NCBI GenBank assembly: GCA_965204235.1
Contig: OZ241979.1
Location: forward strand, 2,530,216 to 2,594,215
Origin: an uncultured Candidatus Binatia bacterium
Lineage (GTDB): Bacteria; Desulfobacterota; Binatia; UBA9968; JAJDTQ01
Reading direction: 5' to 3'
Length of the DNA stretch: 64,000 bases
Numbering within the stretch: position 1 is the first letter of the stretch; every line of letters begins with the position of its first letter. The position numbers were made by a program. Of the stretch, positions 59,101 through 64,000 are shown in pieces.

Positions 59101-62100
59101 GTCGAAGTCGTCGGCCCGCAGGAACGCGTCGTTGCTCCGCATCCATATCTCGTCGTTGCCGAAGACCGACCGCCGCTCCCTCTTGTGCACCTCCACGTCG
59201 TAGATGTGCCTGGCCTTCCTGGTGGAGGAGGGCGTCACGGTCTCGTTCCAGAAGAAGATGACGGCGCTGACGCCCAGGGCGGCCAACAGGAACGGCAGGG
59301 TGATGCGGTGCAGGCTGATGCCGCCGGTCTGGAGGGCCAGCAGCTCGTTCCGCCGGGCCAGTGACCCCAGGGTCAGGAACGCGGCGAACAACGCGGCGAA
59401 GCCCATGACCCGGGAGACCGTCAGCGGCAGCCTGTAGAGGAAGTACCGGACCGCGGTGGAGAGCGCGGCGTCCTGCTCCATCAGGTTGTCGATGCGGTTC
59501 AGGACGTCGCCCAGGAGGTTCAGCAGTACGACCACGAGCAGCGCCCCGAGGAAGGCGCCGGCGAACCGCCGCAGCAGGCGCCTGTCCACGACGCTCCCCA
59601 GTGGAGGATGCAGCAGCGGGACCCGGGAGAGGAGCGCCCTGGGGAAGGTCATTTCGCCGGGGTTCCGCGTCTCGCCGCGGTGGTCCGGTGCAGGGCCCGG
59701 AGCCAACCCGCGGCCTTGGCGTTCCAGGGTGACGGCGTCTCCTTCAGGGTCCTGGCGAACAGGTACGCCGCGGTGAGTCCGACCACGAGGTTGGGGAGCC
59801 ACGGGGCGAGCCGCGGCGGGACCTTGCCGTTCTCCCCCAGGGCGGCGCCCACCGAGAGCAGGGCGTAGTAGGCCAACAGCCAGGCGAGGCACGAGAGCAG
59901 CCCCCGGGAACGCCCCGACGACGGTCGGCTGGGGGCGAGGACGATGGCGGTCCCCAGCAGGGCGAAGACCAGCGGCGCGGCCGGGAAGGCGAACCGCCGG
60001 TGCGCTTCCATGACCTCCGGGACTGCGCTGAGTCCCCGGGCGGACTTGGACCGGATGGCCTCGCGCAGCCGCGGCAGCGGCATCTCCTCGGGGCGCCGGG
60101 ATCCCGGGTCCTGCGGCGACAGCAGGCGGTCCAACTCCAGGCGCAGGTCGTAGGTGCGGAACGACGTCTGGCTGAACCCGGACCTTCCCCGCTCGTGGAC
60201 CGCGCCGTCGAACAACCGCAAGCCGATGGAGTTGGCCTCGCCGTCGGAAAGTAGCAGCGCGGCTTTCCCGATGATAAGGTTCTCCGCGGTCTCGTCCCTC
60301 CGGTCAACGATCAGTACGCCCTGGAAGGCGTTGCCCGGGGGAGTCACCTCGTCCACGTAGATCAGCACGTTGGGAAAGAGGTCGTTGAACACTTTCTCCT
60401 TGAGCAGCGCCCCGGCGCCGACCCGGGCCGCGGCATGGATCTCCTCCTTCAGGGCGAGGTTCGCCGCCGGGCGCACGAAGACCGACAGGCCAAGGGTCAG
60501 CAGCGACACCGGCAACGCCGCCAGCGCCACCGGTACGAGGAAGTGGAAGGGGCCGACGCCGCAGGCCTTGAAGGCCAGGGTCTCCCCGTTCCGGGAAAGG
60601 CGTCCGCAACCGTGGAGGACCCCCAGCAGGAATGCCATGGGCAGGGTCGTCTCCAGGAGCGTCGGCAGGACGAGGGCGAACAGGCTCGCCACCTGGTCCA
60701 CGGGCGCGCCGCGGCTGACCACGAGCTCGGTGAGCCGCAGCATGTGGCCGGTCAGGAACACGAGGGTGAAGGCCAGCAGGCTGACCACGAAGGGTGGGAC
60801 GATCTGGCCGGCTACATAGACGCTCAAGGTCCGATGCACGCCGGCAATGGTAGCTTTCTTTGATGGATTCCTCAATCCAGAGACCGCATGGCCGCGGTGG
60901 GCGGGACTCGACGTTGCTCCACGGGGTCCATCCTGTTCTGGAAAAGCTCGGGGCGGCGCCCCATGACGTCGTCGAAGTGCTGCTGGCCGCGGGCAGCCGG
61001 GGTCCTGCGCTGCGCAGGGTGGAGCAGGCGGCCCGGCAGGAGGGCTGCCGGGTCTCGGAGGCCGACACCCGGACGTTGCGCGCCTTGACCCGGGGCGCGA
61101 AACACCAGGGGGTCGCCGCCCGGGTTGCGCCGTTCGCGTACGGTTCCTTCGAGGCGCTGCTGGCGGCGCCCCCTCCCGCGCCCGCGCACTGCGTCCTGTT
61201 CCTGGACGGGGTGATGGACCCGCGGAACCTTGGCGGCATCCTGCGCACTTCCGAGGCCATGGGGGTCCGCGACGTGGTGGTCCCGAAGGACCGGGCGGCG
61301 GGGGTCACCGGGACGGTGATCAAGGCGTCCGCGGGAGCGGCGCACCACGTGGAAGTCTATCGAGTCTCCAACCTTTCCCGCGGACTCCTCGCGCTCCGGG
61401 ACAAGGGCTACTGGCTGGTGGGCCTCGATGCCCGCGCGGCGGGCAGGGCTTGCGGTCCGGCGTACGCGGAGAAGCTGGCGGTGGTCCTGGGCGGAGAGGG
61501 ACGCGGCATCCGGCCGCTGGTCCGGCGCAGTTGCGATTACCTGGTCTCCATCCCCATGCAGGGCCGGACCGGTTCGCTGAACGTCGGGGTGGCCTGGGGA
61601 ATCTTCGCCTACGAGTTGACGAGGCAGCGAACAGGCGCGGTTCCGGCCCCAGATTCACCACCCCAAAAGGGGGGACCTGCCAGAGGCGGGTGATGGAGGA
61701 AGCGGTGGCGGGTGAAAATTGGAGTGTCTTGACAGCGACCGACACGTGTAGTAAGGGAAGATGTTCAACGGGATGCCTTGACCGTCGGAAACCGCGAAAT
61801 CGGATCACATGACCGTCCCATGAACCTGAAAACAATGAATAATCTCACCACCCCCCCCCCCCCCCCCCCATTTTCACACGCATTCGATCAGGTAACCCTC
61901 CGGCGCCTTTGCCGGCGCTCCGTTCCCCCCTCCGTTACAACGACTTCCGTCTCCGCTTGCCCTTGCGGCACAGCCAACACAACCCCCAGGGCGCACCGTC
62001 ACCCGTCCAACTCCCCTGTCCCGGACTTGGGCAGGGAAAACCTGCATCGAGTCTCGAAACCGGCTTGCTCCCGTCCCCCATCCCCGGTCCCACACACCGG

Positions 62101-64000
62101 ACGGTCGAGACCCGGACCCCCCCAACCTCGTGCGAATTGCCGACTCTGATCGATGGTACGGAAACCCGGCGCAGTATTGTCCAACAAGTACGGACAAAAA
62201 GGAGGAAACAATGAATCCAAGGCCCATGACAAATGATTCTGACCGCGTAGCCCCTGACCACCGCGTCCAACTCCCCAGTCCAACCCCCGTGCGACCCCGC
62301 CGGCGCATTGCCGCCGGTGTCCTGTCCCTCCTGCTCGGCCTGTCCTGCTTCGCCGCCTCCCCGACCTGGGCCTACAAGGCCGGAACGGGCGCTAACGACA
62401 GGCCCTGGAACGCCAACTTCAAGGTATACCGCGACGTCGCTGCCTACATTGCAGATGCGGCGAATCACAATAAATACGAGCACGTCCAGATTAGGAGTTT
62501 GGTGTACCTTGTCGCCGCACTCAACAATCATGGCACCGCTGAAGCCCCCTTGACCGACAGCAACCTTCCAGACCCTGTTCACCCCGACAGATTATTCGAA
62601 ACCGTGGCCGTGGGAGCGCACGCGAATGCTTCGTCTTTCGGCGCCGTTACCATCGGCGCCGACTCCGAGGCACTAGGCCGCTACGCCGTCGCCATCGGTA
62701 GCGACGCCCACACCGCCGGTAGGGGCGCTGTCGCTTTAGGCTGGGCCTCCCATGCCCGCAGGCACGCCATTGCTTTAGGCCGTTCTTCCCGTGCCCAGGG
62801 CGAGGACTCCATTGCTTTAGGCCGTTCTTCCTTTGCCGCCATGAACAGCATCGCCCTGGGCCAGAGCGCATGGGTTATCGCACGGGACAGCATCGCCATC
62901 GGCCAGGGCGTGGTCGCTCGCGGCATAGACAGCATCGCCCTGGGCCGGAGCGCGGGGACCGATGCTACCGGGACCAAGGGCATCGCCATCGGCCAGGGCG
63001 CGAAGGCTACCGGGATCGAGGGCATCGCCATCGGTTCGGGAGTCAGGGCCGGAGCGAACGAGGTGGTGGTCGGCACCCAGAGACATACTACTTACAAGTT
63101 GCCGGGTCTGAAGGCGCCTTCGGGGACCACCAGGGTGGTGACGGTGGACAGCAACGGTCAGCTCTCCACGCAGACCACGGCGACCGGAACGGCTTCTTCC
63201 CGGGGCACCGCCCTGCGGGGCGCCGCAGGGCTTTCCTCGGATGTGACCGCAGTGAGCCGGACGGAGGCAGCCGACTACGAGAAGGCCCCCGCCATCGGTT
63301 CCGGTCCCACTGCCCCGGCAACCGCAGAGCAGCGGCGGGTGGTGGTGCAGGATACCAACCGCGACGGCTCCGTCCGGCTCCGGACCCTCGACTTCGGTGA
63401 CCTCTCGGGAATGGAGCAGCGGTTGGCGGGAGTGGACCGGCGCGTGACTTCCCTCAGCGAGCGGCTGAACAGGGCCACTGCCATGTCTTCGGCGTTGAGC
63501 GCGTTGCCCAACGTCGTGCCGGGGGACAATCGCTTCTTCCTCGGCGTGGGCGCCGGCCACTACAGCAGCGAGCAGGCCCTCGCCATCGGCATGAGCGCCC
63601 GGGTCCAGAGCCGCGTCTTCGTCAACGCCGGCGTGGCCCTCGCCAGTGGAGACGAAGTCAGCGTCCGCGGCGGCGTGGGCGTGGTCTGGTAGGGCGCGGT
63701 CCGATAACTTCCCAACCGAAGGCTTGCCCGACCGACATGGCTGGATTCCGGGGAGTAAAGATACCGGTGGGCCGGTAGTCCCCGCGGTCAACGCACCCGT
63801 TCTACGCGGGTCGACCTTGCCAGACTCCGCCTGCCGCGATCAGGTGGCGGATTTGGGGCCATGCCCCGTTGACATTGCTGCCCATAAATGCTTAAAAGCG
63901 GCCACGTGCCCACGGTTGCCCTGTTTTTTCGATTTTTTCGAAAGAGGGACGGGGTAAGTGTGGCTTTGTGTTCCTGATCGTGCGGCGGTGCTCCGCTGGC

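What the first reader, a model, noticed from the sequence alone, without database searches (positions are those of the whole stretch)
61694..62210. Third poly-C tract and a 340-nt pyrimidine-rich leader upstream of the trimeric autotransporter
The 516-nt intergenic region carries a TTGACA-like promoter (~61727), a 19-C tract (61851-61869), and then an extremely C/T-rich, G-poor stretch up to the AAGGAGG SD. The strong strand-compositional skew suggests a structured or protein-bound 5' UTR, or an sRNA. Together with the poly-C, it points to regulated, possibly phase-variable, expression of the adhesin.
Basis: seen in the sequence. Interest (0 to 1): 0.5.

Follow-up and report, generated by a model that had tools for sequence, protein, structure and literature searches.

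The report
Hypermutable poly-C switch upstream of adhesins
The run of 19 cytosines is real and recurs, at very different lengths, at the same spot upstream of all 15 related adhesin genes examined in this uncultured Binatia lineage, so it is most likely a slippage-prone on/off or dimmer switch for a variable adhesin family, though no expression data exist.

Summary
C19 lies at 61851-61869, a perfect TTGACA at 61729-61734 and an AAGGAGG ribosome-binding site at 62199-62205. They precede a YadA-type trimeric autotransporter gene (ATG 62211). The 341-nt leader is C-rich (39% C, 23% G), but "extremely pyrimidine-rich" overstates it: pyrimidines are 56%.

The decisive evidence is comparative. Related Binatia genomes carry many paralogs of this adhesin. 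All 15 copies examined share one upstream module:
- a TTGACA box;
- about 110-130 nt (232 in one copy with an insertion);
- a poly-C tract of 12-30 nt;
- the motif ATTTTC;
- a 340-364 nt C>G-biased leader (272 in one copy);
- a strong ribosome-binding site and the ATG.

Tract length differs between paralogs and between orthologs (C19 here, C15 in a 96%-identical ortholog), while the flanks barely change. That is the signature of a simple-sequence contingency locus.

The leader is not unusually structured (fold z +0.9 and +1.4), has no Rfam match and shows no sign of coding.

My best reading is that the tract is transcribed and heads an unstructured, Rho-loading-like leader. This is inferred, not shown. 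A promoter-spacing switch of the Bordetella fim or Neisseria opc type remains a live rival. A short upstream reading frame through the tract may gate the effect.

Verdict: a new variant of a known kind, of moderate interest.

The parts
61729..61734 (+). Invariant TTGACA box, a candidate -35 element that marks the 5' edge of the module shared by all adhesin paralogs
   Evidence: Identical in 15 of 15 copies from two clades whose upstream regions are otherwise only about 60% identical. Homology between paralogs starts 10-30 nt upstream of it. It lies 109-130 nt before the tract, or 232 nt in one copy with a 113-nt insertion.
61752..61757 (+). TAAGGG, a weak candidate -10 element 17 nt after TTGACA
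   Evidence: Clade A copies have TAAGGG, TAAGAG, TAAAGG or TAGGGA at 17-nt spacing. Clade B copies have GTAGAT (TAGATG at 18 nt), and L011 has ATGGAT. It fails the strict consensus scan. This assignment is inferred only.
61820..61850 (+). AT-rich segment just before the tract, with two in-frame ATGs (61820 and 61835) that open a reading frame running into the tract
   Evidence: The ATGs are conserved in all 10 clade A copies, and clade B has an ATG 56-61 nt before its tract. There is no Shine-Dalgarno motif. It may be an upstream-ORF start, or an activator or UP-like site.
61851..61869 (+). C19 homopolymer, the hypermutable element
   Evidence: Its counterparts in 14 related genes are 12-30 nt long with conserved flanks. 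The tract is unpaired in the predicted minimum-energy fold of the leader.
61870..61875 (+). ATTTTC motif directly after the tract
   Evidence: It is the only motif next to the tract that is conserved in both clades, as ATTTTC or ATTTCC, 0-2 nt after the tract. Its role is unknown. It could be -10-like (nATTTT) or the codons xAT-TTT of the short upstream frame.
61893..61895 (+). TAA stop codon that ends the 'short' frame 23 nt after the tract
   Evidence: A stop is present in the same frame relative to ATTTTC, 18-23 nt after the tract, in all 15 copies. It is TAA in 14 copies and TGA in L002. The window copy does not currently read in this frame.
61870..62210 (+). 341-nt C-rich, G-depleted, weakly structured leader with rut-like composition
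   Evidence: C 39%, G 23%. 78-nt windows reach C/G of 2-6, against 2% of background windows at 2 or more. The same bias and a similar length (340-364 nt) occur in clade B despite about 60% identity. Fold z-scores are +0.86 and +1.38. Single-base indels between paralogs argue against coding. ORFs on either strand have no Pfam hit.
62147..62149 (+). TGA that ends the upstream ORF in the frame set by the assembled C19 (109 aa from ATG 61820)
   Evidence: The stop lies 62 nt before the adhesin ATG.
62199..62205 (+). AAGGAGG Shine-Dalgarno sequence
   Evidence: AAAAGGAG is invariant in all copies.
62211..63692 (+). YadA-type trimeric autotransporter adhesin gene (493 aa), the regulated gene
   Evidence: Pfam YadA_head E = 1.9e-17 and YadA_anchor E = 1.2e-14. 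It belongs to a family with multiple paralogs per genome. The last roughly 200 aa are 95-100% identical between paralogs, while the heads are 45-62% identical with many indels.

Best explanation
The C19 run is the mutable element of a conserved upstream control module of about 480 bp. Every member of a multigene family of YadA-type trimeric autotransporter adhesins in this Binatia lineage carries the module.

Slipped-strand mispairing during replication lengthens or shortens the run at each paralog independently. This changes how much full-length adhesin mRNA that paralog makes, so a population carries many combinations of expressed adhesins. In other words, it is a contingency locus.

The most likely detail is this:
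- Transcription starts shortly after the invariant TTGACA box, at about 61760.
- The run is therefore transcribed, at roughly +90 to +110.
- It forms the 5' edge of a long, unstructured, C-rich and G-depleted untranslated leader with the composition of a Rho-loading (rut) region.
- Tract length then sets the fraction of transcripts that escape premature termination before the strong ribosome-binding site. It could act directly as a poly(C) Rho ligand, or through the reading frame of a short ORF that runs through the tract.

Shown: the anatomy, its conservation, and the length polymorphism against conserved flanks.
Inferred: the transcription start, any effect on expression, and any role for Rho.
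For: 1. All 15 related adhesin genes carry the tract at the same relative position. They come from the window, two complete Binatia genomes and three metagenome contigs. No other C or G run of 8 or more occurs in the roughly 90 kb of loci L001-L010..
2. Lengths range from 12 to 30, while the 30-nt flanks are nearly identical within each clade.
3. The syntenic ortholog L006 has the same neighbours (LptF/G, SpoU methylase, adhesin, tuf) and 96% overall identity. Its leader is 96% identical, yet it has C15 where the window has C19.
4. Some tracts are interrupted, as expected of repeat decay or locking: CC-A-C19 in the window and C12-T-C3 in L011.
5. The tract travels with the adhesin gene. The upstream neighbours differ at each paralog: a SpoU methylase gene, an antitoxin gene (beyond it the YebC and RuvCAB genes), UDG, Rrf2 and IleRS.
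6. The family looks like a variable-antigen family. The N-terminal 80 residues are about 80% identical and the last roughly 200 residues 95-100% identical, the heads are divergent, and the genes occur in tandem arrays.
7. Evidence that the tract is transcribed:
   - TTGACA is invariant in 15 of 15 copies, 109-130 nt upstream of the tract.
   - Homology between paralogs begins just upstream of it in both clades.
   - No -35/-10 pair flanks the tract.
   - Tracts of 24-30 nt cannot fit a sigma-70 spacer.
8. Evidence that the leader resembles a rut region:
   - C/G is 2-6 in 78-nt windows, starting at the tract and running about 160-260 nt in both clades, although sequence identity is only about 60%.
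   - It is no more structured than shuffles.
   - The tract is predicted to be single-stranded.
   - Long untranslated leaders with a C>G bias are the known substrate of Rho, and uORF-gated Rho attenuation is established (review PMC12360218).
9. There are precedents for repeats inside adhesin 5' UTRs or upstream regions:
   - the G(n) tract of Moraxella uspA1, which is also a trimeric autotransporter (PMC7302503);
   - the Haemophilus hmw1A 5'-UTR repeats (PMC12721329);
   - the leader G-repeat of Helicobacter pylori tlpB (PMC8295292).
Against: - There are no transcript, read-level or expression data. The transcription start is inferred.
- No canonical -10 follows the TTGACA.
- Absolute tract lengths come from consensus assemblies. 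The megabase-scale single contigs suggest long reads, in which long homopolymers are error-prone.
- Paralog copies are not independent samples, because gene conversion can homogenise them.
- The C>G bias is moderate in clade B (C/G about 1.3 over the whole leader).
- Rho has not been shown to exist or to act in this lineage.
- The conserved ATTTTC directly after the tract would also fit a tract-proximal -10 element.
Confidence: 0.5

Rival explanations
1. Promoter-spacing switch of the Bordetella fim or Neisseria opc type. The functional promoter flanks the tract. An activator or UP-like site sits in the AT-rich segment just upstream (61820-61847), and a weak -10 (cATTTT) follows directly after it. 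Tract length sets the distance or helical phase between these elements, so only one or two lengths give transcription. The transcript would then start at about 61880 and still carry a leader of about 330 nt.
For: - This is the most common known mechanism for intergenic homopolymer switches. C-stretches of up to C19 sit in Bordetella fimbrial promoters between the activator region and the -10 box (PMC1891110).
- nATTTT, with A at position 2 and usually T at position 6, is the only motif next to the tract that both clades conserve.
- Clade A has an unusually AT-rich conserved block just upstream of the tract.
- Clade A lengths cluster at 15, in 4 of 10 copies.
Against: - The sequence upstream of the tract is not conserved between clades: AATAATCTCA in one, CACGAGAGGCAACCTG in the other.
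- The scan finds no -35/-10 pair around the tract in the three copies scanned.
- Two copies have C instead of T at the sixth position of the motif (L002 and L010-6968).
- Two clade A copies lack the CTCA next to the tract.
- Clade B tracts of 24-30 nt would all have to be off.
- This model does not explain why the shared module begins about 115 nt further upstream at an invariant TTGACA.
- It does not explain why a long C-biased leader is conserved.
Confidence: 0.25
2. Frame-dependent upstream-ORF gate, a specific sub-version of the leader model. A short ORF starts at ATG 61820 or 61835, runs through the tract as polyproline, and has its frame set by tract length.
- In one frame it stops 19-23 nt after the tract. 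That leaves the C-rich leader bare for Rho, so the gene is OFF.
- In the other two frames, ribosomes translate 220-360 nt of the leader and shield it, so the gene is ON.
- The window copy (C19) would be ON.
For: - In all 15 copies, an ATG-initiated frame is open up to the tract.
- In all 15, one frame after the tract stops at +18 to +23. It is the same frame relative to ATTTTC in both clades, and L002 keeps the stop as TGA where the others have TAA.
- The other two frames stay open for at least 220 nt.
- 11 of 15 copies sit in the short frame despite different flank and tract combinations (flank plus tract of 13, 16, 16 and 19 nt in clade A). P = 0.0018 if the copies are independent, and 0.039 on 11 distinct configurations.
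- Both Illumina-type assemblies (L011 and L012) are in the short frame.
- uORF-gated Rho attenuation is well established (PMC12360218).
Against: - There is no Shine-Dalgarno motif before the upstream ATGs.
- The start codon is not positionally conserved between clades.
- Substitutions within the putative peptide fall mostly at first and second codon positions (read).
- Stop-codon scarcity in the leader is explained by composition (P = 0.03-0.4 against dinucleotide shuffles).
- The frame statistics depend on homopolymer lengths from consensus assemblies and on non-independent copies.
Confidence: 0.15
3. The tract is a neutral passenger. It is a slippage-prone homopolymer that was copied along with the duplicated upstream region and has no effect on expression.
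For: The copies descend from one ancestral module, so finding the tract in all of them could reflect ancestry and gene conversion rather than selection.
Against: - Long homopolymers decay quickly without selection. Yet a tract of 12 or more is retained in 15 of 15 copies, across two clades whose leaders are only about 60% identical.
- The only other long C runs in the window also sit at the 5' ends of surface-protein genes.
- About 0.06 runs of 12 or more are expected by chance per strand in 64 kb.
Confidence: 0.06
4. One reading: the leader is a structured cis-regulatory RNA (riboswitch-like) or encodes an sRNA. A further alternative is that the 'leader' is an N-terminal coding extension of the adhesin, which would make the tract an in-frame translational switch.
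For: - The leader is long and its length is conserved.
- In five copies from the 4.06-Mb genome, the frame after the tract is open and in frame with the adhesin ATG.
Against: - Fold z-scores are +0.86 and +1.38.
- There is no Rfam hit.
- The consensus structure is weak, and no terminator was found.
- Single-base indels between paralogs break the frame. In the window the open frame is out of frame with the adhesin ATG, and clade B has stops in all three frames.
- An extension of about 140 aa ahead of the signal peptide would prevent export.
- The invariant strong Shine-Dalgarno sequence marks the real start.
- The ORFs have no Pfam hits.
Confidence: 0.04

Closest known systems
Moraxella catarrhalis uspA1 G(n) tract, and the uspA2 AGAT(n) repeat
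   Same: A homopolymer upstream of the ORF of a trimeric autotransporter adhesin. Its length varies between strains (6-11 G) and grades mRNA level from high to low (PMC7302503).
   Different: The uspA1 tract is 6-12 nt long, and that survey's table places it 29 bp upstream of the start codon. Here the tract is 12-30 nt and 341 nt upstream. It is followed by a conserved C-biased leader and replicated on eight or more paralogs per genome. There is no sequence similarity, and no expression data exist here.
Bordetella fim2/fim3/fimX promoter 'C-stretch'; Neisseria meningitidis opc poly-C promoter (the opc details are from my own knowledge)
   Same: A poly-C tract (up to C19 in B. bronchiseptica fim3) upstream of genes for alternative adhesive surface structures. 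Several family members each have their own tract, giving independent switching (PMC1891110).
   Different: [quoted passage not shown] Here no promoter hexamers flank the tract. Tracts reach 30 nt. The shared module starts about 115 nt further upstream. A leader of about 340 nt follows.
Haemophilus influenzae hmw1A 5'-UTR heptamer repeats; Helicobacter pylori tlpB leader G-repeat
   Same: A simple-sequence repeat that is transcribed as part of a long 5' UTR and acts after initiation on an adhesin or surface-related gene (PMC12721329; PMC8295292).
   Different: The hmw repeats pair with a G-rich arm to form an RNase III hairpin. The tlpB repeat is bound by the sRNA RepG. Here the tract is predicted to be unpaired, the leader has no G-rich partner, and the window contains no G run of 8 or more.
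Rho-dependent leader attenuators (tnaC-tnaA, speFL-speF, mgtL-mgtA, cruR) and Rho-coupled phase switches (E. coli fimS, C. difficile flgB)
   Same: A long untranslated, C>G-biased, weakly structured leader. There may be a short uORF whose termination site decides whether the rut region is exposed. There is precedent for stochastic DNA switches that act through selective Rho termination (PMC12360218).
   Different: The Rho-coupled phase switches named in the passages of that review that I read use invertible DNA, not repeats. Here Rho dependence is inferred from composition only.

Membership tests
Simple-sequence-repeat contingency locus (phase or rheostat variation) | A homopolymer or short tandem repeat long enough to slip (about 8 units or more) | tested here: met
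   C19 at 61851-61869. Related copies have tracts of 12-30 nt.
Simple-sequence-repeat contingency locus (phase or rheostat variation) | The repeat lies in the promoter, 5' UTR or 5' coding region of a gene for a surface or host-interaction product | tested here: met
   It lies 341 nt upstream of a gene with YadA_head and YadA_anchor domains. It travels with that gene at every paralogous locus.
Simple-sequence-repeat contingency locus (phase or rheostat variation) | Repeat number is polymorphic between strains or copies while the flanks are conserved | tested here: met
   The ortholog pair has C19 against C15, with the leader 96% identical. Paralogs have 12, 13, 13, 15, 15, 15, 15 and 19 in one genome, and 16, 24, 27 and 30 in another. 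Caveat: these are consensus assemblies.
Simple-sequence-repeat contingency locus (phase or rheostat variation) | Length heterogeneity within a population, with reversible high-frequency switching | not testable with these tools
   This needs raw reads or culture. Only consensus contigs are available.
Simple-sequence-repeat contingency locus (phase or rheostat variation) | Repeat length changes expression of the gene | not testable with these tools
   There are no transcript or protein data, and the organism is uncultured.
Promoter-spacer homopolymer switch (Bordetella fim, Neisseria opc/porA) | The tract lies between the -35 or activator site and the -10 of the functional promoter | tested here: inconclusive
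   No -35/-10 pair flanks the tract in the three copies scanned, and tracts of 24-30 nt exceed any spacer. However, a -10-like nATTTT follows the tract in both clades. No transcription start is known.
Repeat embedded in a 5' UTR (uspA1/uspA2, hmw1A, tlpB) | The repeat lies downstream of the transcription start and is part of the mRNA | tested here: inconclusive
   An invariant TTGACA lies 109-130 nt upstream, and the homology boundary between paralogs sits there. The -10 is non-canonical, and the start site has not been mapped.
Rho-dependent leader attenuator | A rut-like segment: about 80 nt or more, C>G-biased, poorly structured and untranslated | tested here: met
   C/G is 2-6 in 78-nt windows over about 160-260 nt in both clades, against 2% of background windows at 2 or more. 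Fold z-scores are +0.86 and +1.38. There is no coding signal.
Rho-dependent leader attenuator | Premature 3' ends in the leader that depend on Rho (bicyclomycin-sensitive) | not testable with these tools
   This needs Term-seq or in vitro transcription. I did not check whether this lineage has a rho gene.
Known structured cis-regulatory RNA or sRNA (Rfam) | A match to a curated covariance model, or a stable conserved fold | tested here: not met
   There is no Rfam hit at the gathering threshold or at E <= 1. The z-scores are positive. The consensus fold is weak.
Trimeric autotransporter adhesin (the regulated gene) | A signal peptide, YadA-type head repeats and a C-terminal YadA anchor | tested here: met
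   YadA_head E = 1.9e-17 and YadA_anchor E = 1.2e-14. An N-terminal hydrophobic signal-like segment is visible in the translation.

The most novel reading that the evidence does not exclude
The poly-C tract is transcribed and acts after initiation, through Rho. Either its length tunes Rho loading directly, since poly(C) is the classic Rho ligand (from my own knowledge). Or it sets the reading frame of a polyproline upstream ORF. That ORF either stops 19-23 nt past the tract, which exposes the C-rich leader and turns the gene OFF, or carries ribosomes across the leader, which turns it ON.

This would be the first repeat-driven phase switch that works through Rho-dependent attenuation or a frame-shifting uORF. 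It would operate independently on each of eight or more adhesin paralogs, in an uncultured and probably sponge-associated phylum.
Probability: 0.22. Interest if true: 0.78.

Novelty: new variant of a known kind. Interest (0 to 1): 0.55.

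Why it matters
Contingency loci are known almost only from cultured, host-adapted pathogens such as Neisseria, Haemophilus, Bordetella, Moraxella, Helicobacter and Campylobacter.

Here the same logic appears in Binatia (Binatota), a phylum with no cultured member. Its relatives are recovered from sponge and other metagenomes: the closest contigs carry sample names of Ircinia-type studies, and Binatia are reported from Caribbean Ircinia (PMC9531527). That link is inferential.

The logic is applied to a whole family of trimeric autotransporter adhesins with conserved ends and variable heads. This suggests stochastic switching and mixing of adhesins as a strategy for living on, or evading, a host or grazers. 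It also gives a concrete handle (tract lengths in reads) for following it in metagenomes.

Mechanistically, the tract sits unusually far (about 340 nt) from the gene. It heads a compositionally conserved, unstructured, C-biased leader. This makes the locus a candidate for a repeat-controlled, Rho- or uORF-dependent attenuator. I did not find that combination in the papers I read.

As a practical note, the repeated module and the homopolymer are likely causes of contig breaks and mis-called homopolymer lengths in these MAGs.

Tried and rejected
- **Rfam** on the whole window (gathering threshold) and on 61600-62300 (E <= 1): only tRNAs elsewhere, nothing in the region.
- **Single-sequence folding** of the leader, with and without the tract: less stable than shuffles. 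I rejected a structured UTR.
- **RNAalifold on 11 leaders from both clades**: a weak consensus, with apparent compensatory pairs that rest on an unreliable cross-clade alignment. I did not pursue a covariance model.
- **Sigma-70 and terminator scans** on three copies: no promoter or relevant terminator.
- **Coding tests of the leader**:
  - Pfam on four ORFs on both strands gave nothing.
  - Codon-position periodicity of substitutions was uninformative, because even the CDS control showed none.
  - Stop-codon depletion was not significant against dinucleotide shuffles.
- **N-terminally extended adhesin**: I considered this because the leader is open and in frame in five copies. I rejected it because of frame-breaking indels, stops in clade B and the invariant Shine-Dalgarno sequence.
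- **Exact-protein look-ups** of the window's own adhesin and methylase, and of P0004 and P0015: not on record.
- **JGI metagenome scan** with the family alignment: no relatives found.
- **L005**: the contig starts 264 nt upstream of the gene, so its tract is missing.
- **-10 consensus**: I looked for one from the other CTTGACA sites in the window. There were too few, and they were too heterogeneous.
- **Literature search** for repeat-mediated phase variation in sponge symbionts: nothing relevant. A search on Binatia and Binatota listed no paper on phase variation.

Full report
**1. What is in the sequence**

The region 61694-62210 is the 517-nt spacer between two genes. Upstream is a SpoU/RlmB-type rRNA methylase gene (60860-61693; Pfam SpoU_methylase and SpoU_sub_bind). 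Downstream is a 493-aa protein with YadA_head repeats and a YadA_anchor, i.e. a trimeric autotransporter adhesin (ATG 62211, stop 63692).

The spacer contains, in order:
- a perfect TTGACA (61729-61734);
- an AT-rich patch with two in-frame ATGs (61820, 61835);
- CC-A followed by 19 consecutive C (61851-61869);
- the motif ATTTTC;
- a 341-nt leader;
- AAGGAGG (62199-62205), 5 nt before the ATG.

A run of this length is not a chance event. About 1.6e-5 runs of 19 or more C are expected per strand in 64 kb. The window holds three long C runs, all on the + strand.

The leader is C-rich: 39% C and 23% G, so C/G = 1.74. Its pyrimidine content is only 56% (61% in the first 240 nt), so "extremely C/T-rich, G-poor" is an overstatement. 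The bias is still unusual locally. 78-nt windows from 61781 to about 61940, and again at about 62041-62070, have C/G between 2 and 6, and only 2% of background windows reach 2.

**2. The comparative result that decides the matter**

A protein search found dozens of close relatives of the adhesin, several of them on the same complete genomes. I fetched the DNA around them.
- The closest named genome is an uncultured Candidatus Binatia MAG, OZ251459.1.
- A 4.06-Mb contig (ERZ25068400, ctg22256) carries the syntenic ortholog, with the same order LptF/G, SpoU methylase, adhesin, tuf. It is 96% identical to the window over 4.3 kb. It also carries at least seven more paralogs at unrelated loci, some in tandem arrays.

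Every one of the 15 adhesin genes for which upstream sequence exists has the same architecture:
- CTTGACA;
- 109-130 nt (232 in one copy that has a 113-nt insertion);
- a poly-C tract;
- ATTTTC or ATTTCC, within 0-2 nt of the tract;
- a leader of 340-364 nt (272 in one copy with a deletion);
- AAAAGGAG and the ATG.

Tract lengths:
- Window clade: 19 in the window; 15, 19, 15, 13, 12, 15, 15 and 13 in the 4.06-Mb genome; 14 in a metagenome contig.
- Second clade: 16, 30, 27 and 24, plus one interrupted tract, C12-T-C3.

Within a clade the 30 nt on either side of the tract are almost invariant. The ortholog pair differs in tract length (C19 against C15), although the leader is 96% identical. No other C or G run of 8 or more occurs in the roughly 90 kb of loci L001-L010. 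The genes upstream of the module differ at every locus, so the tract belongs to the adhesin gene.

A long homopolymer that is retained in 15 of 15 copies, across clades whose leaders are only about 60% identical, yet differs in length almost everywhere, is the genomic signature of a simple-sequence contingency locus.

The protein family fits this reading. The N-terminal 80 residues are about 80% identical between paralogs. The C-terminal roughly 200 residues are 95-100% identical. The head region is 45-62% identical with many indels.

**3. What the leader is not**

- It is not a known RNA: no Rfam match at the gathering threshold or at E <= 1.
- It is not unusually structured. Folding energies are slightly worse than those of dinucleotide shuffles (z = +0.86 without the tract, +1.38 with it). 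The tract itself is unpaired in the minimum-energy fold.
- The cross-clade consensus structure is weak, -15 kcal/mol over 392 columns.
- No terminator-like site that could end an sRNA was found.
- It does not look like protein-coding sequence.
  - ORFs on both strands have no Pfam hit.
  - Paralogs differ by single-base indels.
  - Clade B has stops in all three frames.
  - The scarcity of stop codons is explained by composition.

In five copies the frame after the tract is open and in phase with the adhesin ATG. I regard this as a by-product of C-richness. An extension of about 140 residues ahead of the signal peptide would be incompatible with export, and the invariant strong Shine-Dalgarno sequence marks the true start.

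**4. How it most likely works**

*Shown:* the anatomy, its conservation, and the length polymorphism.

*Inferred:* slipped-strand mispairing changes the tract length at each paralog independently and thereby changes adhesin expression.

Two placements of the tract are possible.

*(a) The tract is transcribed.* I favour this placement.
- The invariant TTGACA is the -35 box of the promoter.
- The homology shared by all paralogs starts 10-30 nt upstream of this box in both clades. That is what one expects if the duplicated unit is promoter plus leader plus gene.
- No hexamer pair flanks the tract.
- Tracts of 24-30 nt cannot serve as a spacer.

The tract would then lie at about +90 to +110 of a leader of about 450 nt. 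What both clades conserve in that leader is length, C>G bias and lack of structure, not sequence. Those are the properties of a Rho-loading region. Long untranslated leaders are established Rho targets, often gated by a short uORF (PMC12360218). Poly(C) is the classic activator of Rho (my own knowledge).

*(b) The tract separates an upstream site from a weak -10 (nATTTT).* This is the arrangement of the Bordetella fimbrial C-stretch (PMC1891110). The conserved ATTTTC and the AT-rich block upstream in clade A keep this rival alive.

**5. A suggestive extra: a frame-dependent upstream ORF**

In all 15 copies an ATG-initiated frame, without a Shine-Dalgarno motif, is open into the tract.

After the tract, one frame stops at +18 to +23. 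It is the same frame relative to ATTTTC in both clades, and one copy has TGA where the others have TAA. The other two frames stay open for 220-360 nt.

Eleven of 15 copies are in the short frame, although they reach it through different flank and tract combinations. They would encode peptides of 20-34 residues of the form M...PPPP[H/D/N]F...stop. The window copy (C19) is in a long frame that ends at TGA 62147-62149.

The excess has P = 0.0018 if the copies are independent, and 0.039 on 11 distinct configurations. It also depends on assembled homopolymer lengths. I therefore treat the "uORF frame gates exposure of the leader" model as a hypothesis with about 15% probability, not a finding.

**6. 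Comparison with known systems**

The closest functional analogues are:
- the Moraxella catarrhalis uspA1 G(n) tract, upstream of another trimeric autotransporter, which grades mRNA level (PMC7302503);
- the Bordetella fim C-stretches, where several family members each have their own tract (PMC1891110);
- the transcribed repeats in the hmw1A and tlpB leaders (PMC12721329; PMC8295292).

This locus differs in several ways:
- the tract is about 340 nt from the start codon;
- tracts reach 30 nt;
- the downstream leader is compositionally conserved and unstructured;
- the module is replicated on eight or more paralogs per genome;
- the host is an uncultured phylum, in which my searches listed no paper on phase variation.

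The Rho-coupled phase switches named in the passages of the Rho review that I read use invertible DNA, not repeats.

**7. Verdict**

The "structured UTR or sRNA" reading is not supported. The mechanism downstream of tract-length change is unresolved.

I rate it a new variant of a known kind, with interest 0.55.

The main caveats:
- There is no expression or read-level evidence.
- Homopolymer lengths come from consensus assemblies.
- The paralog copies are not independent samples.
- The promoter is assigned by conservation alone.

Noticed in passing
window 12894-12911 (C18) and 53271-53284 (C14): Two further poly-C tracts sit inside the 5' ends of two paralogous large surface-protein genes. The frame after each tract encodes a signal peptide (...RLRSALAALVFALAALASAPAAAQ). 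At the assembled lengths, the upstream ATGs (25 nt, and 26 or 35 nt, before the tracts) are one base out of frame with the main ORF, so these would be classic translational switches in the OFF state. The ORF of copy 1 is open for 3168 nt, but that of copy 2 for only 282 nt, so copy 2 may be disrupted.
   Followed up: partly
window 30097 (-), 34808, 43678, 53053; also L001, L003, L004, L007, L008, L011, L012: A dispersed REP-like repeat of about 45-70 nt (GCGCGTCCTTCGACTTCGCTTCGCTACGCTCAGGACGAACGGG) is shared by both Binatia clades. In L008 and L012 it directly abuts the TTGACA box of an adhesin module. In the window one copy lies about 175 nt upstream of the second poly-C tract.
   Followed up: partly
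L008, about 6130-6245 (upstream of the adhesin gene at 6615): A 113-nt insertion with terminal inverted repeats (TCTTAGAGTAG...CTACTCTAAGA), MITE-like, lies between the TTGACA box and the poly-C tract of one paralog. It moves the two 232 nt apart.
   Followed up: no
L008 (genes at 4001, 6615, 9521) and L010 (genes at 4001, 6968): The adhesin paralogs occur in tandem arrays, and each gene has its own complete upstream module. The last roughly 200 residues are 95-100% identical between paralogs, while the heads are 45-62% identical. This suggests gene conversion or cassette exchange.
   Followed up: partly
L005 (contig start) and L010, leader of the gene at 6968: One short-read contig begins 264 nt upstream of its adhesin gene, inside the repeated leader. 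This fits an assembly break caused by the multicopy module. One paralog has a deletion of about 70 nt in the 3' part of its leader.
   Followed up: no
window 63861-63895: GTTGACA, then 17-18 nt, then TTAAAAG lies downstream of the adhesin gene. In the ortholog L006 a tuf-secE-nusG-rplK cluster follows. This looks like a strong housekeeping promoter, and its -10 is also non-canonical. That is relevant for judging the TAAGGG candidate -10 of the adhesin module.
   Followed up: no
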